Assembly (NCBI RefSeq): GCF_902652985.1
Contig: NC_047030.1
Coordinates: 5,084,001 to 5,148,000 of the forward strand
Origin: Pecten maximus
Lineage: Eukaryota
Direction of reading: 5' to 3'
DNA: 64,000 bases
The notes beneath the pieces were generated by a model that was given only the letters and a program-made list of their open reading frames with translations, was not told the origin of the DNA and did no database searches. This document shows, piece after piece, positions 1 to 56,800 of this stretch. Positions within the stretch are counted from its first letter, which is position 1; the number at the start of each line of letters is the position of its first letter. A program made the position numbers and the translations under genes.

Positions 1-713
1 TCAAGGTTATGTATCAGTACCCTCATGGAATCTAGACATAGATACATGTACAGCTATACAATGTACTTGTACAACAATCGTACATTTGGGTTTTGTGTTC
101 CATCTAATCAGAAAATTGTCATTTGATTCGACAATGACCACCTTTAATTATCTTTGTCCGACAAATGCAATATTGTACATGTACAAAAATGTATAATGTA
201 TATCTATACACGTATATGTTTTTGCTATCGAATAATGTTAACATATTCACGAAAATTTAATTCCACTCTTTCATCAGTAATACTATATGCTCAGTCCCGT
301 ATCGAAAATCAAACCATCTATCAAAACTGAGCGTGCCATCTTTGTTAAAACCGCTGTTGAAATAAAAGAAAAGCTCGAGTCCGGGTACTGGAATCTCGCC
401 CGGGACCGGCGTATTATTTTTACGCTATTATATAAACTAATGCAACTGTACAAAGTAGCATCACTTTCAATAGCATCTCGTCACTCGCTCAAATATAGCC
501 TTTAGACGGACCAGGACTACTGATAGGAAAAAAGTTTCTGGTCAAGCTGGACACTAGACTGTCCACTAAAGTCAATGGATGAAGGACATCTGAAGGGAAG
601 CAACATGTATATGTGTGGAATTTGATATTTCTCTAGATTTTATAACGTGGGGGATTATGTACAACGTCGTGATGATCAGCAGCTGATGACTATTCATATG
701 ATTTTATGGACAG

Positions 714-3700
714 GTCAGAGTGTGTTTGTTGACCAGGGGAACCCTTACGCCGATGGACCATTACGTGTTGGCGAGTTAAGTCTAGCGAAGACTATTGTGA
801 ATAGTTCGCTTCACAGCAAAGGTAAATATCATGCTATTATGAAGCATTCTATGATAATTTGTTATTGCTTTATTCGCAGTTATTAAGTATTTCGCGAAAA
901 TAAATACCAGGCGAATATTAATTTACACAGAAATGTATAGAAGAGTTTACTGCATATAACTGAAAAACACAATACAAACATACAATACTTGTAAGCTAGA
1001 GTATAAACTGTTGTATATCACAAATTCATAATTAACTTACGATAAATGTTAGGACGTCAGTAATATACATATATGGAAGGCATGTCGTCATATCTTATAA
1101 AAGGATCGTGACTACCTACATGTATATAATGATCTATATAAAGCTAAAGATTAAAGCCGAAGATTTTTTTTAGATGAGGAAACGTTTTCTGAAAAAGATA
1201 CCTGATAATAAACTGGATATTTGATATTGTATGAAAAAAATGTACAATACAAAAGTAAGTATGACGTAACATCTTCAGAGAAATCGCCAATCGCAACATC
1301 TCGGGGAAATTTCCGGCAACACTCGGAAATCTACTCCCTCGAATGCCAATCGCAACATCTCGGGGAAATTTCCGGCAACACTCGGAGATTTCCGTAATTA
1401 CAAATACACCTTTCTTAAGAGCGTAACGAATTGTTTGGATCCATGTGTGCGCTCTGCCTCTCGACAACGCTTCTTATAAATTTGTCTTTTATGTTTGTTC
1501 CGAAACAATCGCAGTTCAATGGATGCAATCGCAATGGAGCTTTGGTTACATCAGTGGTTAAACTTAAGCTTCTGTTTTATCGAAACCAATGTAGTTTGCG
1601 GAACTTGTTTTAGTTAACTCTTTCATACATGTATTTATAACTGTCCTCTGTTTCAGTATTCTTTCCACTGAAACCTGACACCTACGCGGCTGTTTATTTT
1701 ATTGGAGGACTAGGAGGGCTGGTTCCCACGGAGACGTACGAGATCTTTCTATCAAAAGTAGCTTCACATGGATTTTTCGTTTTTGGTGTTGACATCCTGT
1801 TTCCAGTGTATTCTGCCCATTCTACACCCCAGGAGGCATCAAGAAGGAAGAACATCGGTGATGCACTTGAGAAATACTACAGTCAGTTAATTTGGGTAAA
1901 CATACGATTTTATCACTGCTTCGCAATATTATAAAACAATCCTTTTAGACTCTGATATAAAACAACAAAAGCAATGTACAAAATGTACAAAACTTAAGTT
2001 TAGCAAATTTTTCAATCACAAATACATTACACCGCAGATTTAATCTATAGTGTTAGTCCCTGGGTAACATGATTTGTGTTTACAGTATCCATGGCAATAT
2101 AATAAAAGAGGCAACTAAGTTCGAGATTTCATCCTTTCTCTGTTAAGAAAAAATCTAAAAATCATAAAGAAGTTTAAATATAACTGATAAGACTTTCTGA
2201 AATTTTTTAGCATATCTTCGTAAGATGATGCCCCAATATATTATTCGTGAAAACCTTTTGGCTTGAAGCTAAACGTGAGAAAAGCCTATAAAATTTAGAT
2301 GTGGTTTGCAGGATAGCGACATACCTCAGGACTAAATGTACAACAACGTAGTACACCACGCGAAAACGGCGTTTAATTTCTGTGTACGACACGGATGATT
2401 AGGCTGTGATTACGAATTACAACATAGTTTGTAAATAATTCAGTCTCTATTAAAAAAAAACACGGTTGATGTTTCATGAAGAGAGACACAGACTGGTGTC
2501 AATCTTACTATAGGAGGAAATTGTGGTCTAGTTATGGTTGTGAAGGATGAATAATTAAGGTGTAGAGATTCGACAGTGTTTGCTCGAATAAAGGAAAGGG
2601 AATTATTGCCCTTGGTTGAGGAAGAATAATCCATGTAATCAATCTATTCCAATAAGGAATATAAGCTTCGGCTCATTTTCAAGATTGTATGCAAAATAAG
2701 GTAGAGTTATTGGTGCTGCCAATCATGCTTACACCAATGTACTCATAAATGCTATTTCAACGCTATCATCTCTTTCATTACAATCTTACTGTGATATTTT
2801 AATAATTCAGCTGCAGTCCTACATGCGGAACCAGACGCTATCGACGATAGCATGGGACAAGTTAGCTCTCGTTTGTCATTCGGCTGGATGTGATGACACC
2901 CTCAGACTTATCCTCGGAAATCGTACAATGTACTCGGTAATAAACTCTCCTGGATGATAACTGTAACACCACAGGCGTGTGTATCTGTTTTGTATTTATA
3001 TAAATATTAGCACCTACTAATACTTATGTTGATACAGTTACTGTAGGGGCTAAAGTTTTGTTTCTATCAATAATAACTATTTAAGATTGCAGACACCTGT
3101 GATAACACGCACAGTCTGCACTCAAACGTCCGGTATTAAAGGGGCATTCCTTCGTTTGAATTAGTGTAGGTCGTCAACACTAAACTTACTGGAAACTATG
3201 TATTTTTCCAAGTAGTAAAAGTTATAATCTCTACATAAATATCGCAGTTTTACTCTCAAGATAAACCAAACTTCTTCGAGTATTAAGTTCTGAAAGTTCT
3301 TAATACGACCCGAAGTATCACTCATTACCGCAAAGACATATGGTATTTGTATACAATACACATTTTTCCTTTACATTTTGGCGTTAATTTCATTACTTTT
3401 AGGACAAACACTCTTGTAATCATCGTTCGGACACACATTTCATCAATAGAAATTGTGCATGTTTCTGATGTCCGAACGAATTAAGGAAATTAAGGAATGC
3501 CCCTTTAACAGCTCTTCTAGTGAGTCTGTGTACCATCGCAAATGAACTCACCAGGAGACAGAATGTGGGTCAGTTTCTATTTCTGTGTACCATATGCAGT
3601 ACATGGATGTGTATAAAGTGTTAAAAGTTGGTATGTAGTTTCATGACCGTAATTTTATCACAATTCCTATGAATGAAAGTATATGAATTCAATAACATTC

Positions 3701-5128
3701 AAACTTTGTTATCTCGAACTGATAGCTCAAAGAGCACGCGTAACTCAAAGGAAAAGTAAATCAATTTCGACCTTAAAATTATACATAAAATATACATTGT
3801 ACTAGGTTACCTCGAATAATCTGGAGAGCTCAATTTTTTTAATGACCCAGCCGACTTCGTGATTACAAAGTTCGAATGTATTATTATATATGTTTTAAGT
3901 TTAATTTTTAGTGTCTTACAGACTGAAACGTAAACTGGCCACCAGACCCTAAGTTCTTTTTGTTAAGAATTGCCAAGTTGAATTCTAATACTAGATTATC
4001 TGCCCCTAATTTCAAACTCTAGACATATCCTGGGGACCAAAATCATGAAGCTCAATTTTATTTATAATTTTGATATTCTAGAGACAGGGAGCCTGTCTTA
4101 CTGAAACACATCAGACTAAAAGTCCAAAGTAAATATCAATTTCTCATGAAGGGAACAGCAATGCACTCTGTTAGAGATTGAGTAAATATCTGAGAATCCA
4201 AACGGTTTATGTAGGTTTCATTTTATCCTATAATACGTGTTTTTTTCTAGGCGTCAGTTTTCCTGGAACCCTACAGCAAAAATGTTAAGACAAAGATGGG
4301 TTTCCAAATGCCTGCATTGATGTATGGAACTCAGCTCTCGGAGGAAGGACTGCCATGTGCAATTAAAGGCTTTGACTGGAACCAGTTTTACGACGTCTGG
4401 CAATGCCCGAAAATAAAACTAGAAGCTAGTGTACGTATGGTCCAGTTATAACCGCGCAACACTCCTTTATTTACAGTAACCATACGACAAAGTCTGGTGT
4501 ACATTGTAGCTTCCGGGTGATATTTCGGTAGAACGAAGATAAAAAGGATAATAATTTTCTCATTTTGTTTTTAATTTCAGGGATTTGGACACTGTGATAT
4601 TCTCGACCCTGAGGCGTGGGAAGGTGAGCTATTACAACTATTCAAAGCAAAGGAAACATCAATCAGTCTTGCTGGTAGATCGCTAGATAAATTCCCAAAA
4701 AAACCTGTGAGGTTGAACCCCTCCCCCTCTCCACGAATCTAAAATTCAGATGTGGACGTTTTCATCAATTCATAGTAGTTTGTAGATGGTTCGATAAAAG
4801 GTTCGACGCGTAATGAATGCGAAACTGTATATAAGATGATCAAAGGACTAAAACATAAATTTTATCTTTTTCATATTTCTATTCCCAATTTTAACAGAAT
4901 ATTTTCTCATTTCTTGCTACAGTATGCCACCTTACCCATTTCTGCAAGACGACAAATAACACACGACTATCCGAATATCGGCAGTTCGTCCAGGGCGCTG
5001 TCTCCAGTTTCCTGATGACTACTCTACAGGGGCGTACTGACGCCTTGTCTTACATATCGGACATTCGAAAAATTCCATTACCTGTCATGGATTTGAAGAC
5101 TGAATTCAATTGTTCAACGATTCATTAG
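714..5128 (+). CDS. Chlorophyllase-like alpha/beta hydrolase, 5'-partial (first coding exon not identified)
   Basis: Six GT-AG exons joined in frame: 714-821, 1657-1895, 2811-2936, 4251-4430, 4581-4623, 4923-5128 (TAG 5126-5128), ~300 aa. Motifs: VFFPLKPDTYAAVYFIGG..YEIFLSKVASHGFFVFGVD, nucleophile elbow LALVCHSAG, FLEP, PALMYGT..PCAIKG, GFGHCDILD, C..FCK..YRQFVQGAVSSFL. These are collinear with plant chlorophyllase motifs (ASHGF, GHSRG, DP, PCAP, YGHMDMLD, RRFVGG). Several N-glycosylation sequons (NSS, NQT, NRT, NNT, NCS). Confidence 0.85.
1286..1392. repeat. Two-copy ~59-bp tandem duplication
   Basis: gccaatcgcaacatctcggggaaatttccggcaacactcgga occurs at ~1286 and ~1345. Confidence 0.8.
3140..3504. 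mobile_element. Kolobok-type MITE (non-autonomous DNA transposon)
   Basis: TTAA at 3136-3139 and 3505-3508 flanks TIRs aggggcattcctt / aaggaatgcccct. TTAA TSD with purine-purine 5' termini is the Kolobok signature. Lies in an intron of the chlorophyllase-like gene. Confidence 0.75.
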
Positions 5129-6489
5129 AAGTATCGAGAAAAAATATTGCAAGTGTAGAACGTTTGTGTATATATCGGCATTCATATCTTTTAATCTGTG
5201 CAGAATACAGTCTTCGTTCATATTGTCTCTGACTCCTCGAGCGTCCTATTAACAGCCAGGGTCATTTAAGGATGTTCTTGGATGAAGCACGGCAAAATCG
5301 TAGGCTTTGTTAGTTACAGACAGAAACCAATTAATATTTAATATTGAAAAGTCAACATGAAACCAAAGATGGTCAGTCTGAAACGGTCAACATGTTATAC
5401 AAGAGCCTGTGTTTCTTTTTAAAGAGCTGCTGCAGGTAAATTATTGTTATGACTCGCACATGCTTCCTGCTCAAGATCTCATAAACAATAAAATTCGGGC
5501 CAATTTTGGTTGGCCAGTAACAAAATTCAAAAAACGATCACCATATTTTTTCCGGTCGGTCTCAAAATTTAATATACAACTACAGATTTTTGTGTGAACA
5601 CAAACATATGTCTTTCTTACTGGGCACTGGTTTTAACCTTTGACCTTTAAGTCAAGATCACAATGATCTATGATCCAATAACAAATACAAAAAAAAAAAA
5701 AAAAGATTGTCTACAGACGAGGCACCGATGTCGGGGATAAAACATCAGTTCCTCTGGTCTTCGTCCCGGTGAGATAAAAATGGCCACTGGTTAGCTATTA
5801 TGTTTTCCAGTAAATCTCAGAATTCAATATGCACAGCTAGGGACTAGGAGGAGCCCACATTTGGACAATGCAGACACATAAACATTTCCCAATTCTAGTA
5901 TAACTCGCCCTTAACTTTGTTGCAGGGGTATAATTTAAAGAATTACGATAAGTAATTGGGTTACCTAGGAATTATCGAAAATCCATCCTTTGAATTACTC
6001 CTCATCTTTGTATCTACATGTGGGTCTTCAAAAATTAGTGTATGTAAGCCTTACCTTAGGACATGGCACTCATGCCTCTGATACAGCCAAATCGTAGAAC
6101 TCGCACATCGTACTGTCGGGAAAAATCAGCACACAAAAGTGACACAGGCACATAGGAACTACTATCCTCCACCTCATCTAAATATACAACTGTATTTTGT
6201 CCCTCTTTTAAGAAGGCATCTCAAGCGATACAAATCCTCTTGTTTTTCAACATTGACCAATACATAAGAAAAGTTGAGATTGTCTATAACCACAATGTCG
6301 CTGAGGAAATACTGTAAAGTACCATAATAGGAGATAATAGCTGAAAGGATATTGAAATAACCGAACTACACATATCTGATAATCAACCCAAGTTTGTAGG
6401 CGAGGACAATGAAAATCAATTTATAGAGTTAGAGTGACATCAATTTATACTAGCAGCTAGCATTTATGTTTTTGATTTATATATTATAT

Positions 6490-12100: not shown

Positions 12101-15100
12101 TAATAACATTTCTTACGAATGTATTATAGTAAAACAAATTGATCAAAAACATCACAACACCAGTTATAATGGAAGCGTTACACGCTAGAACATTGACAAT
12201 TCTCCATTTTTAAATAAAAGTTTCAGTACCATAAACTACTTTATCTGGCTATGGTCTTTTATATTGAAATGTAATAAAACCGCATACCCCAAAATAACCT
12301 AAAATCCTAGTTACACACATGTAAATAATGGTAATCCAAGATGCTCATTCACGCTCTCCTAACATCACATTCCTGTACTGAAATTCGCTAAAAAATCGAA
12401 ATCTGAAAACGTAGTTTCACATGTAAGTAATGTTCTTTGTTCGACTCTTTTTTAGTCATCGTTATTTTGTAATGTCTAAATTACAAACAATTACAACAAT
12501 ATACAGAATACAGATAGGATAAAGAAACCGTAATTCAAACTCCAAATCGTTTCAAGGAAGGCAAAACATAAACAAAAACATAGATTCAGAGAATAGCAAC
12601 ATGTGCTCCGGAAGCGTAAGCGTCTTCTGCTTCATCAACGACACCCGCCATACAAATCTGGATCAAATCGACGACAACCGCAATACAAATCTGGACCAAA
12701 TCGACGACACCCGCCATACAAATCTAGACCAAATCGACGACACCCGCAATACAAATCTGGATCAAATCGACGACAACCGCAATACAAATCTGGACCAAAT
12801 CGACGACACCCGACATACAAATCTGGACCAAATCGACGACACCCGCCATACAAATCTGGACCAAATCGACGACACCCGCCATACAAATCTGGACCAAATC
12901 AACGACACCCGCCATACAAATCTGGACCAAATCAACGACACCCGCCATACAAAGATGGGTAACAACGGAACCACTAACCACGTCCGACTTCATATCGCAA
13001 CAGGGAAATAAAATATGTCTAAATCTAAAAGAGATCATAATGTCGACCTTTTAACTCTACCATGGTGTTCATCAAACTGTGTATCTCTAAACATTTTGTT
13101 GTTGATTTCTCCTTTGGCAGGCAACATCTGTCACGGAAATCGTGATAATGGGAATCAACTCTTAAATATCGAATGAACTGGGACATGTGGATACCGTAGT
13201 AGGTAAGGGATGAAGGGATGTTGCTATCTAGAAATGGAAATTTAACAACTGGGAAATTGAACTTATCTTGCTTATCATACAGCTAAATTGTAAGCTTCCC
13301 TGTTGGGTACGTTGTAAGTAAAGATCGAGGTAAGCGGCTGATGTTAAAGTAAAGATCGAGGTTAGTGGCTGATGTTTAGCCTTAGCCTTATGTTGAACAG
13401 GATATATCCGATCGATATGGTCAATTAAGATTTTGCTATTTGAATATAAATCACATCGTCAATATAAATAAATGTTGAATTGAAGGATGCTGCAGGATTT
13501 CTGTTACCTGTTATAGGCTCTTAGATATAAGCAGCTTCTTATGAGAATATAGACAAGTTAGCCAACAGAGCCGCACAGTTTGTTCCCATGGATATGATAA
13601 TCGTCTGTCACCAATCTCAACAAATTAAGATGTTTTCATTCTGACATTCCATCATGTTCAAGATTTATCTTCGGTGTATGTTCCTTGTTGTTGGTTTAAC
13701 GAAATAGGGTCCCCGTATAGTTCACAACTATGCAATTTTATCGTCTTGAAAAGAATGCTCATTACAAGAGAACAGAGATTACAATCTTAAAAGGTTAAAA
13801 CATAATCAAAAGACCTTTCAATTTCTTTAAATCTACATTTTAATTCGTATTTAAAAAGCATCCCAATAGGACTGAAGCCCCGAACCTAGAATGGTAGTTA
13901 GAAATATTAATGTGTAAAATGCTAGATACATTTTATTCGGAATGCTTAAACATTTGAATATAAAAGTACCCTTGATCTAAAATAACAACTGAGAGCAAAT
14001 ATTCGATGGAATGTGAATAATAAATAGAGATAGAAAGACCATCGAAAGAGAAAAAAAGTCAATTAACCCTACAAACTACTCAATACCTTCTAGTAACTGT
14101 ATTCATTTACGACAGCGTCACATTGTTATATAGGTCAAAAAAGTTCATATCGCCGTCACTATATTTGTTTTAAAATGTTATCTATACCAAGCTTAAGTTG
14201 ATAAACAAGCATGATATCGATATAATAGGTAACAAAGACTTACGTCAGCAGTAAACACAAAGAGCGTATCGTCCTTCATCCCTTTCTGTGCTAACTTGTC
14301 CGTAAGGTTCCCTACAGCTTCGTCCAGCGCGCTCACCATGCCTTATACAGCGAGAAAAAATCTTAATACAGACTTAAAGTGTAAATATGCTAGAAAGGTA
14401 GTAATTATGTATTTTACACTATCTAAATAATGTTTGTACATGTTACAAGCATTTTCATTAAAAAATATTTTTCAATCAATAACGTAAAAATGTCTTCGCC
14501 ATTCACAACATCGCTTTTAATTGACTGATGTATAATTGAGAGTGTGTACAGTAGCTAAAATTATGACGATTATCATGAATATATAATATGCCATGTAGTG
14601 ACAAGTTACTCTGGTTTTATTCATTTCTTGGCATACATATAGTATCTCGGTGTACTATATTTGTTAGTTTATTTTATAGCTAAAATTGCTATTCATCTGT
14701 TTGTGACTTTTGTTCAAACCTTTATATTATTAAGTAGAACCAATCTACAGTGTTTTATGTCGATTTCATTCTACGCTATACCCTAAAGTACAATTATTTG
14801 TATACATCAATGTCGCATAGATATCTATAACCCACCTGAAAATTTACGCCTCCCTTCATTCTGAATATTGGGATACATATCTTCATATTTCTTTGGAACC
14901 TGTATTTTGGTGATGAAACATACATTACTTTAAAACGTATAACCTTTTATTGAAACAAGGTGTTACAGAAAATATAATATACGTTGAAATCGTCATTATA
15001 AATATTGGCTACATGCATGTAGATTATCAAACTGCATTATGTAATGAATGTACATGTATGCTCAAACACGTAAATCATTATGAATAAATACCTCTATTGG

Positions 15101-15486: not shown

Positions 15487-18400
15487 CGACCGTCATATAA
15501 GTTAATACATATAATGACATGTGATACAGCTGTAGATACAAAATGTAAAAATCTGTAAAAGTTTTAATCCAATTCAATTAAATTCCAAAAATGTTTTATG
15601 AAACTCGTCTCGAACTTTTAATTTTTGCTCGCCAAGGCTCACAAATTCTAAGACTCGTTAAAACTCATTAAATATCCTTATATATACAGTGTGTGCAATT
15701 GATTGTAAGGTACTTTTAAATACTCACTAAAGAATAGGTTCCATTAAATTCGGTAGCAAGACGTTCATTTTGCCTTAAATCATATCCACCCTCTAAAAGA
15801 TATACACAAATGTATAGCTATTAATTTATGAATTATACATTGACTTTTAAGCTTAAAGTCTGAAGACTTCCTTACGAATTGATAATAAGACTGGATGTTT
15901 TCATGCTATATGAAATCCAGGATACATGTATGTTAAAACTTTGTTTAGTGAAGAAATTACTACTTTTCGTTTTTATGTTTTGAAATTAATGTTTGAAATG
16001 ACAAAATAAATATCATACATTTATTCAATTTATCAAACGATTTGTATTTGAATATATGTTTTGGTTATTTTAATTCAGATATATTTCATTACGTACTCCA
16101 ATCGTGAGTATAATAGTCTTCCTGGGCATTGTAATACCCAAAAAAGGAGTCGAACCCGCGATGTGTCGGTGTACACTCCCACTTACAGAACCCTAGATGC
16201 CACCTGGAAAGTAATGTCATAGATACATATGAATATGTGTCGTGGATACACTAATTTAATGACATACTAGTGCTTACCAAACTTTCGACAGAAATTTATG
16301 GTTTTGCATTTTATTTAGTTATGGTTTGTCATAGGACTGGTTGATATGGTGTGAGCCTCATACTGAAGGATTTGAATTTTACCGGACATATTGTATTATT
16401 TTTCAACATAATCCCCTTCAGTTTCTTTACACTTTTTCAAGCGGTGTTTAAGGACCTCAATGACAGTTTTACTGAACTCCTTTTCTTACCTGTTCAGAAA
16501 GTCGTCCAATGCATGTATGGCGTCATCATCGGACTGAAAGTGGGTGCCTGAAATATCTCTTTTCAGTTTTGGATATAGATGAAAGTCTGATGGAGCGAGA
16601 TCAGGTGAATAAGGCGGCTGCTCAATCAATTTAAAGCCACAATCGTGAATGGCAGCCATGGTAATGACAAACTTGTGAACAGGAGCATTGTCCTGATGGA
16701 ATAACAAACCTTTAGTGGGCTTTCTGAGACGCTTAAGTTTAATATTTCCCTGTAACTGCCTCAGAAGTGAAGCATCGTATGTGCCATTGATTGTTTGTCT
16801 CTTTTGTAAATAATCATTCAGCAGAATACCTTCTGCATCCCATAAAACCGAGGCCAAAACCTTCCCCAGCTGATGGAACAGTCCTTGCCTTCTTTGGCCT
16901 GGGAGAGCCAGGGTGTCCATCGTTTCGATTGTTGTTTGGCCTCTGGGGTAAATGATTGAGTCATGTTTCATCCATAGTGACAAATCACTTATCAAAGTAG
17001 GCAGGATCTTCCTCAAAAAGGTTAAGATTAGCACACGATAATGTGCGCCTGGTGTGCTTCTGATCAACTGTCAGAAGTGGTGGTACCCATCGGGCCGAAA
17101 GCTTTCTCATTGATCCTCGGTCAGAATAGAATATACTCTTTCCTGTAAAATGCCAACTCTAGTAATATATATCTTTCTGTGACTTGTCTTTCAGTTATAA
17201 CAATATCAGAAACTTTATTGACCATTCCTTTTTATACAAATATTGGATCACTGCTCTTTTACGGATTTTGTCTATTTTGCAAAAGCCGTTTGTCTTGTTT
17301 ACTTTAGAGTGCTACCTCTTCGATATAAACAAACCAAATGAGACCAGTCCTTGGGTACACGGCCTTATATAGTCAGAGAATAAGAAACTTAAAAAAAACA
17401 ACCTTGAGTACCTCCTTCAATACGGGGCTCACAACAGATCAATAATCCCTCGTATCTCATTTTGACTGCGTATACAGTAGTATGCCCGTAGTTGGCAGCA
17501 ACATATCCTATGGAGCGCCTTCGGATATGTTCGTTGTCTACTACGGGCACACTACCGTAAACGCAGTCAAAATGAGGTATAATCCTCAAATATCTTTAAT
17601 ATAATCAATATGAATATAGCTTTTGATATCAGATTCAATACTAGTATATAGTATTGAATATCAGGATCACGGGAGTATGGGCTTTTTCTCATTTGTGCCC
17701 CCCCCCCCCCCCCCCCCCCCCCAAAGTATAACTTCAACAAAATTAAATATTGAATTCGTGATACCATCACAATATACTTGAAACAAAGCAATGAAGTTTT
17801 CCTGGAAGACGGTGCTTTGGAACATTTAAAAATGCGAAAGCCAGTTGGGTTCATTTTCGTAGGAAAAAAAAAATACTTTTTCGCGTAATAACGCGAAACT
17901 AACGCGTTATATCGGTAAAGGAAAGATATTATTTTCTTCTACAATAATGAATCCAATTAGATTTCAAATACAAAAGACAATTGAAGGTACAATAGACATA
18001 CTTGCCGACCATATGTGTGGCGTAACCGAGATCTTTCAAGTACTTTGGAAGGAACTGCATGTCTAGAGGAGAACACACCGGCTGTTCTGGCATAATCACA
18101 CGGTGCTGGGAACAAAGCATTATAAACCAGTCAGATGTATATCCGCATTGGAGGTGGACTGTTTCTGTTTCATTTCACATCTAATATCAATTTACTAATA
18201 AAGGAATAATGAATTTACAATGTATATAAAGGTCGTGGTGGCAGATGCGGTGGTTTAGCGGCGTGGTGACTTTAAGGCGACCTTAGACTTGGCGACAAAG
18301 GCGGCAGTTTGGTGACGCGGTAGCAGATGCTGCGGTTGGGTGAGATGATGGCGGTAAAAGCGATCAATGACATGGTGGTAAATGCGGCTGCTTGGTAACG

Positions 18401-29848: not shown

Positions 29849-32800
29849 ATGGCTGAACCTAAGTAAGTAAATACTGTATGTTGTTATGTTTGCCTTCATA
29901 CGATTTCATGTAAATTTGTTTTATTTATCGGTAAAAAGCAAGAGTCGAATTTACCAGTACCGGGTCGTGACTTGCAAGTTTATACCTTGTTGTATTGCTT
30001 TCACTTCCACTATTTCAGTACGTGCTTGTCACGTATTAGGGCAAAGTTTTAATGTAACTCGTTGAAATTGTGAATAAAATGCGTGGGGTACTAGTATAGT
30101 ATGTAGTTAAAATATGACTTTGAAAAAAAAAACTTTTTTAACTGCAATTAAATATTCATTATAAAATTAAATGTTGACGTCATTTAAAGAGAAATACTAT
30201 ACATCCAGGATATACCTTTATCAGTCCATGACCATCCTATATTTTCCACTTGTGATCAGAATCAATTATGTACTCACCCAAATGACATTTTCAACTACAT
30301 GTACATGGAAAAGGTAGTTGAAAGAAGCCGGCCATTATGTATTAGTGTAAATAAATTTTCAAATCCATTAACAATGTACAAATGTATGTGTAATAGGAAG
30401 GAGCTATGAAAAATGCCCTGCCTGCTCTGGGGCTTGAACCAGTGACGTCTTGCTCTCTAGGGAAACATCCTACCTCTAGGCTATTGGGAAATTCCTGCTA
30501 GACTGAGCTAGTGAGGACCTTATACTTTCTACTTTTAAACATTCTTTAACGGTTTCTTAGAATTATCTGGTAATAAATCATATACTGAGGCTATGGCACA
30601 GGTATCTTACAATGATATGAAATTGAAAGAAAAAGTCTTAACCCTTTAAGTAATTAGAAAACTTAGTATCTGAGCTGAAGTCATAGAATATATTTAGATT
30701 TCCATTTTGGTGAGAGTGGCTATCAATTATTTTTATTTCAATTAATGCTCTCTAGAGAAGGCCTCAGAAAAAGTCTTTTTAATGTTCATTATACAAGTAT
30801 CAATCTTGTATATCAGTAGAAAATTTCCCTTGATTAGTTTGAAGAATAGTGAAAGCCCAGGTCAAGCATTCTTTAAGGTAGTAAGAAAAACCTAGAGAGA
30901 GAGGCCAATATTTAACATGTAGCTATTTTTAGTTGTTTCATATTTACTTTTATTTCTTTGCAAAAAACTTAATAAATTCTGATACATTGAAATCACTAGT
31001 GTTAGTCCATAAACCTGAACTCTATTTGCCTTCATATGAAATACCAACAAATAACTTAATATACATGTAACGTCCAACATTCAATCTGACTTACTACTGT
31101 TCCAGTTCACTGCCTTATTTAAAACATGGTATCACTAGTCGAGTAAGTATGATCAGATGTTGCAAGGGTAAAGTATTTAATATATTTCATGAATGCTGGC
31201 CCATAATAAATGGCTAAGTGGTACCTGAAATTACTCTAACACACTATTAAAAGTTCTTATTTGTTGCAATATCATATGTATGAAAAAAATACTGTTGATC
31301 AAATCAGGGTTTAAATTGTCATGGTTGACAAAACATTGTGAATCATGATGCTCGTAATAACATTTAACATCACTTAGGAGTACATTTGGTAGCTACTAAA
31401 TAAACTAATATTTAAAGTGATAACAACCATGAACAAAATCTGTTGGGGTTTAAAGTGGATTTGAGAACTTTTTAAAAAGTTACTATGTTACAGTTAATTT
31501 CATTTGTCAATAGTTACTGACTATAAATTACACTATAAATGAATGTACAAGTAACATATTAATCAGTTAGGTGTTGGAATAGATGGGTAAAAAAAGAAGT
31601 CTGTTTCAATATTTCCTAATTTTACTTGTTCTACCAACTTTTTATATCCTGTATCCAATATTCAGTAAATCAAAGACTTAAATGTGATGGTTCATGGATT
31701 GGATATGGGCATTCAAGCTGTTTAGTCCAATAGCTAGCTTTTGTGGCTGTGAGGTTGAGTGTTTGTGTCTGTGTACCGAAGTTAAGCAACATTGAGCAAG
31801 GTCATGCAGCTCTTGGATGGGTGACAGCTCCGTTGTACCCCTGGTGCATGTTACATTAATTTTCCTATAAAAGGAAAGTTCTTTTCACAATAAAAACATA
31901 TTTCTGATCCCTGTATACATCTTAAGTGACTTAAGTAGGAATGAAGCTGATCGAGGCAAACATTTTGTTTACCCCAGTCAATGCCAAATGATCATAAGCC
32001 TATACACAAACAGTTTTGATCTTTAGATTGTAAGAGCTTGTCTATTTAACTAGTAGATAACATGTAGATGGAAACATTTAATGCTTAAAAGTCACTGCAT
32101 CAGGTTAGAATTAGGTTAAAAAATGTGTTTTTTTTATTGTTTGTTTGCAGAAACGTTTTAAAGTGAAATGGGTATTATCATCTGATCATTGAGTATTGAT
32201 TTATACATAATGGTGGTATTATAACTCTATCATATACATGTAAGTCATATTTATTGCATATATAATAAATCAATATTTTCTTTTTTTTTGCTCACCTTTT
32301 CGACGGCTATTTAACCTTTGTATTATAGTGTCTGTTGCCTTACTGGTATATATACATGATATCTTCTTATATGTATATACAAATGTACAATGTAACTGTA
32401 TAGTCAAAGTCCGGGTATGATAATTGTGTTGGGCTAGTAAGTTTGCTAGAATCAAGGCTACTAAGTTTGCCCAAGTGAATAACCTTAACCTATTTTGAAG
32501 ATTACATGTATCAAATATATTGAATAACAATAAATATGGTTTTTTTCTCAAAGGTCATGGCATTAATAAGACCTAGCAGCATTCTAGAGTGAAATGTTAC
32601 CAAGTTTACTCAGATATATGACTGTAATTATCAACATGTACTTGCAAGCCTAACAGTGGTCAGGTTAACAGAAATTCTGTAATGCTGTGATACTTAGTGT
32701 TGTAGGGGAGATATGATTGGACTGGCTGTAATGTTGTGTTAATGTTGTAGGGGAGATATGATTGGACTGGCTGTAATCCTGTGTTTATGTTGTAGGGGAG

Positions 32801-35800
32801 ATATGATCGGATTGGCTGTAATGCTGTGTCTATGTTGTAGGGGAGATATGATTGGACTGGCTGTAATGTTGTGTTAATGTTGTAGGGGAGATATGATTTG
32901 ACTGCCTGTTGTAATGTTGTGATAATGTTGTAGGGGAGATATGATTTAACTGGTTATAACTGTGTATTTATGTTGTAGGGGAGATATGATTGTACTGGCT
33001 GTAATCCTGTGTCTATGTTGTAGGGGAGATATGATCGGACTGGCTGTAATGTTGTGTTAATGTTGTAGGGGAGATATGATTGGACTGGCTGTAATGTTGT
33101 GTCTATGTTGTAGGGGAGATATGATTTGACTGGCTGTAATGTTGTGTCTATGTTGTAGGGGAGATATGATCAGACTGGCTGTAATGTTGTGTTAATGTTG
33201 TAGGGGAGATATGATCAGACTGGCTGTAATGCTGTGTCTATGTTGTAGGGGAGATATGATTGGACTGGCTGTAATGTTGTATTTATGTTGTAGGGGAGAT
33301 ATGATTGGACTGGCTGTAATGTTGTATTGATGTTGTAGGGGAGATATGATTGGACTGGCTGTAATGTTGTGTCTATGTTGTAGGGGAGATATGATTGGAC
33401 TGGCTGTAATGTTGTGTTGATGTTGTAGGGGAGATATGATTGGACTGGCTGTAATGTTGTGTCTATGTTGTAGTGGAGATATGATTGGACTGGCTGTAAT
33501 GTTGTATTGATGTTGTAGGGGAGATATGATTGGACTGGCTGTAATCCTGTGTTGATGTTGTAGGGGAGATATGATTGGACTTGCTGTTATGCTGTGTCTA
33601 TGTTGTAGGGGAGATATTATTGGACTGGCTGTAATGTTGTGTCTATGTTGTAGGGGAGATATGATCGGACTGGCTGTAATGTTGTGTCTATGTTGTAGGG
33701 GAGATATGATTGGACTGGCTGTAATACTGTGTTTATGTTGTAGGGGAGATATGATTGGACTGGCTGTAATCCTGTATTGATGTTGTAGGGGAGATATGAC
33801 TGGACTGGCTGTAATGTTGTATTGATGTTGTAGGGGAGATATGATTGGACTGGCTGTAATGTTGTGTTTATGTTGTAGGGGAGATATGATTTGACTGGCT
33901 GTAATGCTGTGTCTATGTTGTAGGGGAAATATGATTGGACTGGCTGTAATGTTGTGTCTATGTTGTAGAGGAGATATGATTGAACTGGCTGTAATGCTGT
34001 GTCTATGTTGTAGGGGAGATATGATTGGACTGGCTGTAATTCTGTATTGATGTTGAAGGGGAGATATGATTAGACTGGCTGTAATGTTGTATTTATGTTG
34101 TAGGGGAGATATGATCGGACTGGCTGTAATGCTGTGTCTATGTTGTAGGGGAGATATGATTGGACTGGCTGTAATGTTGTGTCTATGTTGTAGGGGAGAT
34201 ATGAGCGGACTGGCTGTAATGTTGTGTTAATGTTGTAGGGGAGATATGATTTGACTGGCTGTAATGTTTTGTCTATGTTGTAGGGGAGATATGATTGGAC
34301 TGGCTGTAATGTTGTGTCTATGTTGTAGGGGAGATATGATCGGACTGGCTGTAATGTTGTGTTAATGTTGTAGGGGAGATATGATTGGACTGGCTGTAAT
34401 GCTGTGTTTATGTTGTAGGGGAGATATTATTGGACTGGCTGTAATGTTGTATTGATGTTGTAGGGGAGATATGATTGGACTGGCTGTAATGTTGTGTCTA
34501 TGTTGTAGGGGAGATATGATTGGACTGGCTGTAATGTTGTGTCTATGTTGTAGGGGAGATATGATCGGACTGGCTGTAATGTTGTGTTAATGTTGTAGGG
34601 GAGATATGATTGGACTGGCTGTAATACTGTGTTTATGTTGTAGGGGAGATATGATTGGACTGGCTGTAATCCTGTATTGATGTTGTAGGGGAGATATGAC
34701 TGGACTGGCTGTAATGTTGTGTTGATGTTGTAGGGGAGATATGATTGGACTGGCTGTAATCCTGTATTGATGTTGTAGGGGAGATATGATTGGACTTGCT
34801 GTAATTCTGTGTTAATGTTGTAGGGGAGATATGATCGGACTGGCTGTAATGCTGTTTATATATTGTAGGGGAGATATGACCGGATTGGCTGTAATTCTGT
34901 GTCTATGTTGTAGGGAAGATATGATTGGGCTGGCTGTAATGTTGTGTTGATGTTGTAGGGGAGATATGATTGGACTGGCTGTAATGCTGTGTCTATGTTG
35001 TAGGGGAGATATGATTAGACTGGCTGTAATCCTGTATTGATGTTGTAGGGGAGATATGATTGGACTGGCTGTAATGATGTTTATATATTGTAGGGGAGAT
35101 ATGACCGGATTGGCTGTAATTCTGTGTCTATGTTGTAGGGAAGATATGATTTGACTGGCTGTAATCCTGTGTCTATGTTGTAGGGGAGATATGATTGGAC
35201 TGGCTGTAATCCTGTGTCTATGTTGTAGGGGAGATATGATTTGACTGGCTGTAATTCTGTATTGATGTTGTAAGGGAGATATGATTGGACTGGCTGTAAT
35301 GTTGTGTCTATGTTGTAGGGGAGATATGATTGGACTGGCTGTAATTCTGTGTCTATGTTGTAGGGGAGATATGATTGGACTGGCTGTAATCCTGTGTCTA
35401 TGTTGTAGGGGAGATATGATTTGACTGGCTGTAATTCTGTATTGATGTTGTAAGGGAGATATGATTGGACTGGCTGTAATGTTGTGTCTATGTTGTAGGG
35501 GAGATATGACTGGACTGGCTGTAATTCTGTGTCTATGTCGTAGGGGAGATATGATTGGGCTGGCTGTAATTCTGTGTCTATGTTGTAGAGGAGATATGAT
35601 TGGGCTGGCTGTAATTCTGTATTTATGTTGTAGGGGAGATATGATTGGGCTGGCTGTAATTCTGTGTCTATGTTGTAGAGGAGATATGATTGGGCTAGCT
35701 GTAATTCTGTATTTATGTTGTAGGGGAGATATGATTTGACTGGCTGTAATCCTGTTCATATGTTGTAGGGGAGATATGATTGGGCTGGCTGTAATTCTGT

Positions 35801-38800
35801 GTCTATGTTGTAGAGGAGATAAGATTGGACTAGCTGTAATTCTGTATTTATGTTGTAGGGGAGATATGATTTGACTGGCTATAATCCTGTTCATATGTTG
35901 TAGGGGAGATATGATTGGGCTGGCTGTAATTCTGTGTCTATGTTGTAGAGGAGATAAGATTGGACTAGCTGTAATTCTGTATTTATGTTGTAGGGGAGAT
36001 ATAGCGTTGATTGGACTGGCTGTAATGGGACAGAACATCATCCTTAACATGAATGATCATGGATTTACGGTAAGTCACTGATACAATGATTGACACATCT
36101 GACACCATATAAATATAACACATTAAGAGTTCAACCTTGTCTGTTATGTAAATATTTCACATTTTCAAGTAATTTTGATAACATAGATGTTGTCAAAACA
36201 TTTTGCAAGAATACTATTTTTTATATATAATGATGGACAAAGCAGGTTCAAAGGTGTTGAGGGAGTGGTCGAAGCCTAGCAATATAGACAGAGTGATGTA
36301 TGTGGTAAACCAGTAACTGGGTAAAATTAGTGTTGAGAATCGGTTGAGATTTCAACATCGCTGATTGAATAAAATAAGTGTCATGCAGCCGATCTATTTT
36401 AAATTTTTAATCTGTTAGCCTACTGTTACATAATCATTTAAAAATATTCCTTCTTCTTTACTCAGGGATTGAATAGGCATATTTTCTCCAAAGCCGATTT
36501 TGCGGCCATTTTGATTTTACACTATAGCTTTACTCAGAGTAGTTTTGTATCATTTATTTTTTATCATACCATTTAAATGTTATAATCTTTGTTGATAAAC
36601 AGTACATCATATATGTTTTTGCAATTGATTATTAAAATAGTTAAATAGCATGATTGATAACAAGTTATCAGTTAAGAGTAAAATGATATAGAGCTTCTGT
36701 TCTCTCTTAATGAAAATGAAAGTTTAACTTGCACTTCCAGTTTTGAAAACAATCGTCAATGTTGACATCTGATAACTGATAATCGGGAATTGGTTGCCTT
36801 TCGGATTAGATTAATCAATTATAATCCATAATCAGAAGAACACTAAGTGTAATGCTGTGTTAATGTTGTAATGGAGATATATAGCACCCATATAGATAAA
36901 ATTTTAAGATATTCTTGTTTACTTGATCAACTGATCCTAACGCATAATACAGTGGGGATCAAATTTAACGTGAATTTAGTCTCCGTTTCTTTGAACACCC
37001 ACACCAATTAGACAACACAGAGACAGCCCAGTAGCATTCTACTTCAATTTCCAATCACACTTCAAACTGGAAACGATCAGAATACTACTAGTTATATCAA
37101 TTCTTTACCATGACACCACTAAGGAGCATGTCTAAAGGTAATTGATGCATCCTCAGTCAGTCATATTATCAAAGATTTTAAGATGCTTCTGACTTTGAAA
37201 GTATGTCAAATATGTTAAAAATCTTTAAACAACTTCATCTCAATAACTAAGAGGCCAAGGGTCATGATATTGGGCCAGTAGCATGATCAGAGGAAGGGCT
37301 ACAAAGTTTGTTCAAATCAATGACCTTGACTGACGTTTAAGGTCTCATGGGTCAAATATGCTAGAATCTTATACAACTTATTAATAACCAAGAGGCCCAT
37401 AACAACGATATTGCAGCAGTATCATGGTGGGATGAAGGGATAACAAAGATGTTTAAATGAATTACCTTGATGTAAGACCCAAGAGGCCCAGGGTCATGAT
37501 ATTGGGCCAGGATAGTGGCATGCTTTGATAGTTGACTGAAAAGTTTGTTCAATGGAATGACCTTTGCATGGTCTACCTTCAAGGTCACACTGGTCAATCG
37601 TATTAAATACTTGATCTAAAACCAAAAACATCAACTATCAGTATATCAGAACCCAGGTTACCTTTAAGGCTCTTGAGCCTCTTGTTGTTTAAGAGGTTAT
37701 TTTTTGCATAAGGGAAATGAACATTATTCAAGATTTCTATCAATTTCTATTTTGTTAATTTGGCTTTCTGAATTTTTTAATGCAGAGTTTGAACTTCATA
37801 ATTTACTTCTGTACGACTCTTCATTAAATCTCAATAATCAGTTCTCTCTCACTATATCTACATAGCTGTCTTTTGCTGCAAGGGCTGTATACATGTATAT
37901 ATATACTCACTGTGTACCAAATGATAATGATCAATATTGCACTCAATTTAATGTACATAACATTCCTCCAGTATGTATATCCTTCATGATATCATTAGTA
38001 AATGTAAAATTTGATATTCTCATTGACACTAAAACTTTTCTCCTGTATACATGTAGCACCTGGTGTTCATATTATGTGAATTGAAACCAGAAACCAACTC
38101 AGTTTGATCTGCCAATTAAACGTAGTTACAAGAAATCAATTTAACTTTGTAAACAGTCAGATCCCCGAGATATGTGCTCAGAAGATCTAGACATGTAGTC
38201 AGCTCGGAGCTGTGTAGACACACCATGTTTACATATATCAATTCTGAGTATGTAGCTCGGGGTACCGCGAGGGGACAGGGGTAGAAGTTTCAGATTTGTT
38301 GTTGATGTGCATTGCAAAGATGAAATAATGTCTAAAATAATAATCTTCATTTGACTATTGGAAATCTTAATAAATCAGTAACGGCCAGGTGAGAATTAAG
38401 GCATATATATAATTAATGCAACGATTAATTAGGCATCTATGAGAGACTTAATTGTTACAATCAATTCTAAAATTCATTGGAATGTACTTGTATAAGAAAT
38501 TACTATAATATAATTGATTGTTTAATAACTGGTATATATCTTATATGATTTTTCAGTTTTTGTAGCAGTTTATGTACCCTTGTGTGTCTGTTATACTGAA
38601 TCTTCCAGGCTTATGATACATTTAACATGGACACCTCTCAAACTTAACAATTTCCTGTGGGAAGTCCTGGTGTACTACAAGGATGTGTTATGGCCTTAGA
38701 CCTCTCCTGTCTGTGTATCTCCTGTTAACCAACATTTTACGTCCTCTAAGTCTGGTCAGCTTTACAAAATTTGTGAAAAAAGAATCAATGTTTTAGATAA

Positions 38801-53800: not shown

Positions 53801-56800
53801 TTGATTACCTATAAATAAATAATCTTATTTATTAATTCGATATATTGTCCATGAACCTCTATGGTATCCCAGTTGTAAATTGTATTAGTTGTAAATGTCT
53901 ACAATAAGTTTTTTTTTTTTTTTTGTATGTGATGTAAGTGTAAAACTATCTTGTCATAAATGATGATATAAATGACACTATTGATTCACTCTAGGTGAAG
54001 CTGTCTTTGCACGATGTCTGTCTGCCCTTCAGAAAGAGAGAATTGAAGCCAGTAAACATATCCAGGGACCAGAGAAAACTAAATACGATGGTGACAAGAA
54101 GGCATTAGTTAAAGATCTCAAACTGGTATGTTGCTACAAGTAATGAGTTTGTATGATTTGTTAAACGTTAATTAATGGTCAATGGTTGTGTTTTTTGATC
54201 GGTATTAACAATATTAATGGTCAATGGTTGTGTTGTTTAATACATCATTAATGGTCGATGGTTGTGTTGTTTAATACATCATTAATGGTCGATGGTTGTG
54301 TTGTTTAATACATCATTAATGGTCGATGGTTGTGTTGTTTGATACATCATTAATGGTCGATGGTTGTGTTGTTTGATACATCATTAATGGTCGATGGTTG
54401 TGTTGTTTGATACATCATTAATGGTCGATGGTTGTGTTGTTTGATACATCATTAATGGTCGATGGTTGTGTTGTTTGATACATCATTAATGGTCGATGGT
54501 TGTGTTGTTTGATACATAATTAATGGTCGATGGTTGTGTTGTTTAATACATCATTAATGGTCGATGGTTGTGTTGTTTAATACATCATTAATGGTCGATG
54601 GTTGTGTTGTTTGATACATAATTAATGGTCGATGGTTGTGTTTAATACATCATTAATGGTCGATGGTTGTGTTGTTTAATACATCATTAATGGTCGATGG
54701 TTGTGTTGTTTAATACATCATTAATGGTCGATGGTTGTGTTGTTTGATACATAATTAATGGTCGATGGTTGTGTTTAATACATCATTAATGGTCGATGGT
54801 TGTGTTGTTTAATACATCATTAATGGTCGATGGTTGTGTTGTTTGATACATAATTAATGGTCGATGGTTGTGTTGTTTAATACATCATTAATGGTCGATG
54901 GTTGTGTTGTTTAATACATCATTAATGGTCGATGGTTGTGTTGTTTGATACATAATTAATGGTCGATGGTTGTGTTTAAAACATCATTAATGGTCGATGG
55001 TTGTGTTGTTTAATACATCATTAATGGTCGATGGTTGTGTTGTTTAATACATCATTAATGGTCGATGGTTGTGTTGTTTAATACATCATTAATGGCCGAT
55101 GGTTGGGTTGATCGATCAGTAATTTATGGCTGATGCATTGGTTGTTCCATCATCAATTAATGGCAGACAAATGTTAGTATGGCGTCAATGAGGAGACCAA
55201 TTTTATCAACCCAGGATCATTAGTTTGATAGTTATACCTGACACTGTACCTGTTACAATTATTATATTTTCCGTTATTTTGTTACAGATTGTTTTCTTGT
55301 TTTCTGACCATGAAGGTTATTCGCTAACAGTTTTGTTTATATATAACATATAATGTTAAGTCATGTTTTCCTCCAGGCACTGTAAAGTTATATATCATGT
55401 TTTCCTTCAGGCACTGTATGCCTCCAAGATTGTCTCCTATGCCCAAGGGTTTATGTTGATGAGGGAGGCAGGGGCTGAACTGAAATGGGATCTGAACTTC
55501 GGTGGTATTGCCTTGATGTGGCGAGGAGGTTGCATCATCCGAAGGTTTGTAAACTTTGATAGATATTTCTGTCAAATATGAATATGGTCATAATTTCTAA
55601 CCATAGTTAATTTCGAGTTTTATTTTGACACAAATACCTGAAATAACATAACTTAAATGTACACTGTACCTGGAGGGATGAAGCCTGTTTTATCATAAAA
55701 TGTACCTCGACCACTGGAGCCCGTTTTATATCTTATTTTGTGTATAACTATTGGTTCAGATGATTCATTAAAACTTAGTACATGCATTGTTTTTCGTTTT
55801 TGTTGTCATCCTCCTGTAGGCCAATTTATATACTGTAAATCACTTATATTTCGCGAGTACTTAATTTCGCGATCTCACCTCATTCGACTTATTCGCGAAT
55901 ATATAATTTCGCGAATTCTGATCTCAAAATGACTTTAAATTTTAGGTAGGCGATATTTCAAGGTGGAGAGTGAAGTGAGTTGTTTTCAATGTAAATAAAG
56001 CTATCACTTCCGTTCATATATAGTGTTTTGTGATATAAATTTACACTCTGATATATGTATATAATTTATCATTCTATTCTTACTTTAACGACGATGTCTG
56101 TTCACCATCTAAAGATTACAGTATATTCAAAATGGACGCCACTTATTCTTGTCATTCTTATATAAATATTCGCGAGGGATTTGAATTCGCGTTTGACTCT
56201 CCTCGCGAATTAACGCGAAAATAAATCCCACACGAAATATAAGCGATTTACAGTAGTACCGGTAACCAACACACTACATCCTGATTACAGATCAGTAACA
56301 AGTGCTGCCAAACACTAATTCATTGTCCTGCAATAAGTCTGCAAACCGCCAACCCCACAACCCACAACCCACCACAAAATGAGTTGAAGGCTTGACTTAA
56401 AATTTCAAGATAAAAATAGTGTGCAATACACATCAATCTATATATACATGTACGACTGTAGTTGATTTTCATTCATTTAGTGTTTTCAATTGAAATGTGA
56501 AATAGCTTGACAAAAAATATATGTTTCAAGAAACTGTATTTGATTTCAGCCGTTTCCTTGGTAAAATAAAGGAGGCCTTCGACAAAAATTCCAAGCTGAG
56601 TAATCTCTTGTTAGATGACTACTTTAAGGCAGAGATACAGAAATGCCAGGCGGCGTGGCGAAGGGTTGTGTCTACCGCTGTCTTACTGGGAATCCCAACA
56701 CCAGCCTTCAGTACAGCTCTCGCTTTCTTTGACGGCTACCGTTCAGCCAGACTTCCTGCCAACTTGTTACAGGTAAATAGTTTGATAATGTGAAATTTAT

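What the first reader, a model, noticed from the sequence alone, without database searches (positions are those of the whole stretch)
714..5128. Intron-containing chlorophyllase homologue in an animal genome
Seen: six spliced exons encode all motif blocks of the chlorophyllase family, plus five N-glycosylation sequons. Introns carry animal-type MITEs, so this is an integrated host gene rather than dietary contamination. Known: chlorophyllase removes phytol from chlorophyll, and bivalve and abalone viscera accumulate dephytylated catabolites (pheophorbide/chlorophyllone types) usually attributed to the diet. Inference: a host-encoded secreted digestive-gland enzyme could process or detoxify dietary chlorophyll. 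Similar automated annotations may already exist; the function is untested.
Basis: partly seen in the sequence, partly recalled or inferred. Interest (0 to 1): 0.7.

Follow-up and report, generated by a model that had tools for sequence, protein, structure and literature searches.

The report
Secreted chlorophyllase-family enzyme in scallop
A scallop carries its own spliced, transcribed gene for a relative of the plant enzyme that cuts the oily tail off chlorophyll; it belongs to an old branch shared with other shellfish, amphioxus and single-celled relatives of animals, is predicted to be secreted, and likely helps digest chlorophyll from eaten algae, though no activity has been tested.

Summary
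The gene is real. All six exons have GT-AG borders and one open frame. A seventh exon just upstream of the window adds the start codon and a signal-peptide-like leader. RNA contigs show all six introns spliced. The 319-aa product equals a RefSeq protein already named 'chlorophyllase-2, chloroplastic-like [Pecten maximus]'. It passes Pfam Chlorophyllase (72 bits, cut-off 26), and its closest solved fold is wheat chlorophyllase (Z 33.5, PETases 26). The triad is Ser-Glu-His, and both cysteines of the plant active-site disulfide are kept; several substrate-pocket residues differ. Animal chlorophyllase-family genes are already mentioned in print, without any assay in the passages I read. What this adds: the scallop protein sits in a distinct branch with molluscs, Lingula, amphioxus, a choanoflagellate and amoebae, apart from plants. 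That favours old vertical descent over transfer from plants. Digestive-gland expression and chlorophyll activity remain untested. 'Detoxification' is doubtful, because tail removal alone leaves a photosensitiser. Verdict: known family, undescribed variant, good testable lead.

The parts
1..713 (+). Remainder of intron 1. Coding exon 1 (ATG + 19-aa signal-peptide-like leader) lies outside the window, 57-114 bases upstream (G000:C16:5083886-5083943)
   Evidence: Leader found by ATG/phase-1 donor scan, sequence; equals the N-terminus of P0001; 770-base GT..AG joint in RNA contigs
714..821 (+). Coding exon 2 (residues 20-56): end of leader and first strands
1286..1389 (.). Dispersed ~100-bp repeat (two 45-nt copies, 59 apart) in intron 2
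   Evidence: 63 matches from 40 scored candidates, one being itself
1657..1895 (+). Coding exon 3 (residues 56-135): oxyanion loop and the ASHG block
   Evidence: Pfam PF07224 E 0.0014 on its own; splicing
2811..2936 (+). Coding exon 4 (residues 136-177): nucleophile elbow C-H-S-A-G-C; Ser159 codon at 2880-2882
   Evidence: aligns to wheat Ser145 (PMC10011514); H158 and S159 invariant in 75 of 75 rows
3136..3508 (.). MITE-like element with 22-nt terminal inverted repeats in intron 4
   Evidence: also present in the C3753 copy
4251..4430 (+). Coding exon 5 (residues 178-237): predicted catalytic Glu183 (4266-4268) after beta6; Cys213 (4356-4358)
   Evidence: Glu183 aligns to wheat Asp172, Cys213 to wheat Cys220
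4581..4623 (+). Coding exon 6 (residues 238-252): G-H-C-D block, predicted catalytic His241 (4590-4592), clade-specific Cys242
   Evidence: aligns to wheat His248; H241 in 75 of 75 rows, C242 in 43 of 43 clade rows and 0 of 32 others
4923..5128 (+). Coding exon 7 (residues 252-319, stop): Cys253, Cys259 (4943-4945, partner of the plant active-site disulfide), Cys315
   Evidence: Pfam PF07224 E 0.0017 on its own; Cys259 aligns to wheat Cys264

Best explanation
This is a spliced, transcribed scallop gene for a chlorophyllase-family serine hydrolase that is predicted to be secreted and glycosylated and likely removes the phytyl tail from chlorophylls and pheophytins of eaten microalgae in the gut lumen or digestive lysosomes. 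Shown: gene structure, splicing, family, fold. Inferred from homology: Ser159 attacks the C17(3) ester, His241 and Glu183 complete the triad, Cys213-Cys259 folds over the site as in wheat, and the acyl-enzyme releases chlorophyllide/pheophorbide plus phytol (or passes the chlorin acyl group to another alcohol). Inferred from the tree: the gene descends vertically from a phagotrophic unicellular ancestor, since choanoflagellate and amoebozoan proteins share the branch and its signature. The digestive location and the substrate are untested.
For: Pfam PF07224 72.1 bits against cut-off 26, PETase 20.3 against 28. Best PDB hit is wheat chlorophyllase 8FJD by sequence (E 1.2e-8; profile 3.2e-16 against 1.1e-8 for the next), Foldseek (E 1.5e-19, TM 0.75/0.80) and VIA-align (Z 33.5, rmsd 2.4 over 270 residues; next Z 26.1), on a model with mean pLDDT 87.4. 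The acid follows beta6 as in chlorophyllase, unlike cutinases/PETases. Both cysteines of the disulfide that matters for wheat kcat are kept: C213 in 74 of 75 rows, C259 in 73 of 75. Wheat enzyme accepts Chl a/b, pheophytin and bacteriochlorophylls and tolerates single pocket changes such as R146A and F216A with altered rates (PMC10011514). 24 of 28 close hits carry a name, all molluscs or amphioxus. A host 'chlorophyllase' is among the most abundant intestinal proteins in a crustacean gut proteome and falls 2.2-fold on a chlorophyll-free diet (bioRxiv 10.1101/2024.11.06.622251, passages). The family is reported lost in terrestrial animal lineages (PMC12804077, passage). Careful tree: 27-row branch 100/99 holds the 17 named lophotrochozoan and amphioxus rows with Codosiga, Dermamoeba and Rhizamoeba; plants lie across a 100/100 branch; holding the animals with plants against the protists is rejected at p-AU 0.026.
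Against: No assay and no tissue data. Identity to wheat is only 23-25%, and chlorophyllases share their fold with broad cutinases. Pocket residues differ: Arg146 becomes Ala/Ser/Gly, Phe71 Leu, Phe72 Gly, Leu249 Cys; the Phe216/Phe217 loop is shorter; the loop after the acid is 13-20 aa against 21-30. Homologues occur in Babylonia (carnivore, recalled), Solemya (chemosymbiotic, reduced gut, recalled) and Codosiga (bacterivore, recalled), so an algal diet is not required. The crustacean gut protein was not matched to a sequence; the one named crustacean protein in my tree (Panulirus) falls in a different branch with Ser at the acid column, so may concern another subfamily. A snail 'chlorophyllase-1' differs between parasite-resistant and susceptible lines (PMC13619432, one table row), which hints at other roles. 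The tree has no named algal or cyanobacterial row, 20 of 54 rows are ungrouped (18 without an organism), it is unrooted, the Codosiga branch is long, and the AU constraint was chosen after I had seen quick trees.
Confidence: 0.5

Rival explanations
1. It is a secreted or lysosomal general lipid esterase of the chlorophyllase fold. Its real substrates would be other dietary esters (carotenoid acetates such as fucoxanthin, wax or sterol esters, galactolipids), with chlorophyll at most a side substrate.
For: Changed pocket and extra cysteines around the nucleophile and the His; lidless cutinase-like fold (PMC10011514); presence in non-algivores (diets recalled); bivalves modify dietary fucoxanthin (PMC6949322, passage).
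Against: Closer to chlorophyllase than to any cutinase by profile and fold; the chlorophyllase active-site disulfide is kept across the family; reported loss in land animals and diet response in a crustacean gut fit a chlorophyll-linked role.
Confidence: 0.32
2. The enzyme acts outside digestion, for example in haemolymph, mucus or immune cells, on microbial or host lipids.
For: Leader and sequons fit any secreted protein; a snail homologue is 4.7- to 37-fold lower in one line of a resistant/susceptible comparison.
Against: One table row only; protist homologues suggest a phagosomal, digestive origin (inference).
Confidence: 0.1
3. The gene was acquired horizontally from plants or algae by an early animal, as speculated for crustacean CLH genes.
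For: PMC13163145 proposes this for crustaceans (passage, no tree seen); no named algal sequence was in my tree, so an algal donor older than the animal-choanoflagellate split is not excluded.
Against: Choanoflagellate and Rhizamoeba proteins carry all eight scallop cysteines and the short loop; land plants are separated by a long 100/100 branch; AU p 0.026.
Confidence: 0.07
4. Contamination, pseudogene or chance motif match.
For: Each exon alone scores below the Pfam cut-off, and a family search of the unspliced genome found nothing.
Against: Intact frame, six spliced introns in RNA contigs, 37.8-Mb contig, orthologues at 77-80% identity.
Confidence: 0.01

Closest known systems
Plant chlorophyllase CLH (Triticum aestivum, PDB 8FJD; Pfam PF07224; PMC10011514)
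   Same: Fold (Z 33.5), nucleophile-acid-His order with the acid after beta6, His before the Ser, no lid, cysteines of the active-site disulfide.
   Different: Glu for Asp; Ala for Arg146; G-H-S-R-G-G becomes C-H-S-A-G-C; about 10-aa shorter loop after the acid; extra cysteines 157, 162, 229, 242, 253, 315; no Cys270 dimer link; five sequons; 23-25% identity; non-photosynthetic host.
Auto-annotated animal 'chlorophyllase-1/2-like' proteins (RefSeq/UniRef: Pecten, Crassostrea, Haliotis, Biomphalaria, Lingula, Branchiostoma)
   Same: This is that group: P0001 is the window's own product.
   Different: The label 'chloroplastic' is inherited from plants and does not apply; I found no functional study in the searches run.
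Crustacean CLH-like genes (PMC13163145; gut proteome bioRxiv 10.1101/2024.11.06.622251)
   Same: Same Pfam family (Panulirus P0139, 110 bits), animal host, hydrophobic leader.
   Different: Panulirus lies in another branch, keeps the long post-acid loop and lacks C242/C253.
Bacterial cutinases / PETases (Pfam PF12740)
   Same: Lidless alpha/beta hydrolase core, N-terminal two thirds align.
   Different: Below Pfam cut-off, Z 26 against 33.5, acid after beta7 rather than beta6 (PMC10011514).

Membership tests
Chlorophyllase sequence family (Pfam PF07224) | Score above the curated gathering cut-off over most of the profile | tested here: met
   72.1 bits against 26; residues 55-301 on profile 32-288 of 301
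Chlorophyllase sequence family (Pfam PF07224) | Chlorophyllase fold as best structural match | tested here: met
   8FJD first in Foldseek and VIA-align, Z 33.5, rmsd 2.4, 270 aligned, on a predicted model
Plant chlorophyllase (EC 3.1.1.14) | Nucleophile-acid-His triad with the acid after beta6 | tested here: met
   S159, E183, H241 align to S145, D172, H248; the acid is Glu in 32 and Asp in 9 of 43 clade rows
Plant chlorophyllase (EC 3.1.1.14) | G-H-S-R-G-G elbow with Arg146 | tested here: not met
   C-H-S-A-G-C; Arg in 0 of 43 clade rows. R146A lowers but keeps activity in wheat
Plant chlorophyllase (EC 3.1.1.14) | Active-site disulfide Cys220-Cys264 | tested here: met
Plant chlorophyllase (EC 3.1.1.14) | Aromatic pocket walls Phe71, Phe72, Phe217 and tunnel Leu249 | tested here: not met
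   Leu74, Gly75, shortened loop, Cys242 by sequence alignment; low identity makes single columns uncertain
Plant chlorophyllase (EC 3.1.1.14) | Hydrolysis of chlorophyll to chlorophyllide and phytol | not testable with these tools
   Needs an assay; none seen for an animal homologue in the passages read
Cutinase / PETase (PF12740) | Score above the Pfam cut-off | tested here: not met
   20.3 bits against 28; NCBIfam gave 0 families for P0001
Secreted / lysosomal glycoprotein | Cleavable N-terminal signal peptide and sequons | tested here: inconclusive
   19-aa hydrophobic leader on its own exon, predicted helix 3-18, conserved sequons; no signal-peptide predictor was available
Digestive-gland enzyme | Expression in digestive gland or gut | not testable with these tools
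   Run tissues are coded; the supplement of a scallop digestive-gland paper could not be read

The most novel reading that the evidence does not exclude
Grazing animals and phagotrophic protists share an ancient secreted chlorophyllase branch that is the missing host enzyme of chlorophyll breakdown in aquatic food webs: it strips phytol from eaten chlorophyll and, by transesterification, makes the carotenoid- and sterol-chlorin esters found in shellfish viscera and sediments, and may feed the cyclopheophorbide-enol detoxification route whose genes are unknown.
Probability: 0.2. Interest if true: 0.75.

Novelty: new variant of a known kind. Interest (0 to 1): 0.42.

Why it matters
Tail-less chlorophyll products in shellfish viscera and grazer-derived chlorins in sediments are well known, but whether the animal or the eaten alga supplies the enzyme is open (my recall; no paper on it surfaced). 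A review suggests an unnamed abalone esterase makes the fucoxanthin-pyropheophorbide ester (PMC6949322). The genetic basis of chlorophyll catabolism in algivorous protists is stated to be unknown (PMC6775998). A single-locus, expressed, secreted candidate with protist orthologues makes these questions testable with one recombinant assay. It would also give biochemical meaning to the reported loss of the family in land animals (PMC12804077). If the enzyme proves to be a general esterase, the finding is an ordinary misnamed hydrolase.

Tried and rejected
Literature: 10 searches. Searches (any 2 of 5 terms; any 3 of 5) listed only off-topic papers with 0 'chlorophyllase' counts. 'chlorophyllase'+'digestive gland' and +'hepatopancreas' gave 0. 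'pyropheophorbide'+'scallop' gave 3, 'cyclopheophorbide'+'chlorophyllase' 2, 'steryl chlorin ester' 3; none named an animal enzyme in the passages read. The library lacks most subscription papers, so this does not prove absence. Supplements: the Nature tables held were cut and had 0 hits, so the lineages that lost the family are unknown to me; the scallop digestive-gland supplement (PMC8150855) was too large to read and could bear on tissue expression; an amphioxus gut paper's supplement had 0 hits; choanoflagellates were not found in the CPE table. Hu et al. 2015 on plant CLH location and chlorophyllide toxicity was not held and is not used. Expression level: 14 of 24 listed runs hold the last exon and 10 hold next to none; runs X17 and X19 showed no exon joints; contigs cannot show absence or level, so I draw nothing from this. 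Paralogues: the family search of the unspliced genome found 0; the protein search found only this locus and C3753; distant paralogues could be missed. Trees: (95 rows) and 70 were quick trees; the careful tree used 54 rows that I picked from about 200 proteins, leaving out fragments, near-duplicates and some long branches (P0070, P0124). I ran one AU test only. Cysteine pairing beyond C213-C259 could not be settled: co-occurrence is confounded by kinship. No complex prediction or atlas search was run.
Full report
1. Observation. The window is G000:C16:5084001-5148000 of a 918-Mb genome. The six exons named in 'parts' have canonical borders and give 299 codons with one stop, at 5128. A scan of 20 kb upstream for ATG-started hydrophobic frames ending at a phase-1 donor listed 30 candidates; the nearest, 57-114 bases before the window, was not the top scorer, but it equals the N-terminus of the database protein P0001. 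RNA contigs confirm it: run X2 (RNA on record) shows all six GT..AG joints, X1 four, X5 three and X9 one; X4 shows five plus the sixth with an allelic base, X11 one, X17 and X19 none. The five sequons are there. One intron holds a MITE-like element with 22-nt inverted arms and many genomic copies. A second copy of the 3' half on the 38-kb contig C3753 aligns along exons and introns (mean column identity 91%) and shares variants with RNA contigs (for example the 6-base insertion); I read it as the other haplotype, though a very recent duplicate is not excluded.

2. Identity. The product is identical to a protein that its source names 'chlorophyllase-2, chloroplastic-like [Pecten maximus]'. It scores 72.1 bits on Pfam Chlorophyllase (cut-off 26) and 20.3 on PETase (cut-off 28). 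Wheat chlorophyllase 8FJD is the best solved relative by sequence, profile and two fold searches. Using the wheat paper (PMC10011514; I read parts 1-4 of 10, abstract to the start of the bioinformatics section), Ser145/Asp172/His248 map to Ser159/Glu183/His241, His144 to His158, and Cys220/Cys264 to Cys213/Cys259 (alignment). The paper notes that the acid follows beta6 in chlorophyllase and beta7 in cutinases; the scallop protein follows chlorophyllase. Differences: Arg146 to Ala, Phe71/Phe72 to Leu/Gly, Leu249 to Cys, a shorter Phe216/Phe217 loop, no Cys270.

3. Relatives. The word-based search gave 28 hits; the 24 with names are 22 molluscan and 2 amphioxus proteins. The full HMMER scan gave 309 representatives at E 0.001 and listed 150. 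I looked up 30 of them; 13 carried an organism: Lingula, Solemya, Branchiostoma, Aplysia (2), Haliotis, Liolophura, Panulirus, the choanoflagellate Codosiga, the amoebae Dermamoeba, Rhizamoeba and Paradermamoeba, and the chytrid Boothiomyces (the group names are my recall). All of these that I scanned pass Pfam PF07224. A profile search added a liverwort, a fern and three unnamed plant-like proteins. In the careful tree (54 rows, 317 columns) the 17 named lophotrochozoan and amphioxus rows lie in a 27-row branch (100/99) with Codosiga, Dermamoeba, Rhizamoeba and 7 unnamed rows. Plants and eight unnamed G-H-S-R-G proteins (bacteria-like by their leaders; not shown) lie across a 100/100 branch. 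Panulirus and Boothiomyces fall in a third, weakly supported group (86/84). Forcing the 17 animal rows together with plants and the G-H-S-R-G rows against the protists, lobster and chytrid costs 45 log-likelihood units, p-AU 0.026; the constraint was chosen after quick trees were seen. The branch has clean markers: Cys242 and Cys253 in 43 of 43 rows against Cys242 in 0 of 32 others, and an acid-to-Pro198 segment of 13-20 residues against 21-30 (the 43 rows were chosen from the tree, so this describes the branch and is not an independent test). Codosiga and Rhizamoeba have all eight scallop cysteines. Limits: no root, no named algal or cyanobacterial row, protist rows come from transcriptomes, and Codosiga has a long branch.

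4. Mechanism. Shown: gene, splicing, family, predicted fold. Inferred: a secreted or lysosomal, disulfide-rich glycoprotein with a Ser-Glu-His triad and an open active site. I commit at 0.5 to dephytylation of dietary chlorophylls and pheophytins in digestion. The support is indirect: closest kin, the kept active-site cysteines, the broad pigment range of the wheat enzyme, filter-feeding and grazing hosts, a diet-responsive host 'chlorophyllase' in a crustacean gut and reported loss on land. The main rival (0.32) is a general lipid or carotenoid esterase, given the changed pocket and the non-algivorous carriers. Tail removal alone does not detoxify, since pyropheophorbide a generates singlet oxygen; a protective role would need a further step such as esterification to a carotenoid or cyclisation to CPE. 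CPE catabolism was found in half of the Amoebozoa tested and in chytrids (PMC6775998, passages), groups that also hold homologues here, but no species was matched, so this is only a lead.

5. What is known. The gene is annotated automatically. A 2025 Nature paper lists the 'chlorophyllase protein family' among families lost in terrestrial animals and its reviewers call the dietary link speculative (PMC12804077, passage and peer-review file). A 2026 paper finds CLH genes in five crustaceans and suggests horizontal transfer (PMC13163145, one passage). The Arabidopsis paper has 0 mentions of animals (PMC11659893, term counts and two passages). In the searches run I saw no assay, tissue study or phylogeny of the molluscan branch; most subscription journals are not covered. 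Our scan's index had nothing by sequence; the word search returned notes on viral and actinobacterial chlorophyllase-likes only, which I did not use.

6. Verdict. A real and intact gene of a known family, already labelled, whose presence in animals is in print. The undescribed part is the branch itself: secreted, Glu-triad, extra cysteines, shared with unicellular phagotrophs, and arguing against transfer from plants. Interest 0.42: not surprising as a family call, but it gives a direct test of who cleaves chlorophyll in grazers.

Noticed in passing
window 56506-56793 (+): Exon of 6-phosphogluconate dehydrogenase (Pfam PF00393, 87 bits): an ordinary host neighbour.
   Followed up: partly
window 16486-17070 (-): Remnant of a Tc1/mariner-type transposase (PF01359, 44.9 bits).
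   Followed up: partly
L002:6690-9645 (about 350-3300 bases upstream of the window): About 3-kb tandem array of roughly 30-40-bp units ending about 240 bases before the start codon; unit not measured.
   Followed up: no
window 32600-36100 and 12600-13000: Long tandem repeats that produce repetitive ORFs and strong GC skew.
   Followed up: no
G000:C3753:1-2600 (L011): Second, diverged copy of the gene's 3' half on a 38-kb contig, itself annotated as a 180-aa protein (P0006); likely the other haplotype.
   Followed up: partly
P0139 (Panulirus), P0047 (Paradermamoeba) and relatives: In 14 of 32 rows outside the scallop branch the column of the catalytic acid holds Ser or Asn, with an Asp three residues later in the two shown: the crustacean-type proteins may use a shifted acid.
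   Followed up: no
P0030 (Solemya), P0034 (Haliotis rubra), P0042 (Liolophura): A second molluscan paralogue group (100/98) that lacks Cys157, Cys162 and Cys229; P0005 (Pinctada) has two domains in tandem, possibly two fused gene models.
   Followed up: no
window 5242-5275: Short stretch in the 3' flank that attracts very many contigs in all 8 runs laid: the end of an abundant dispersed repeat.
   Followed up: no
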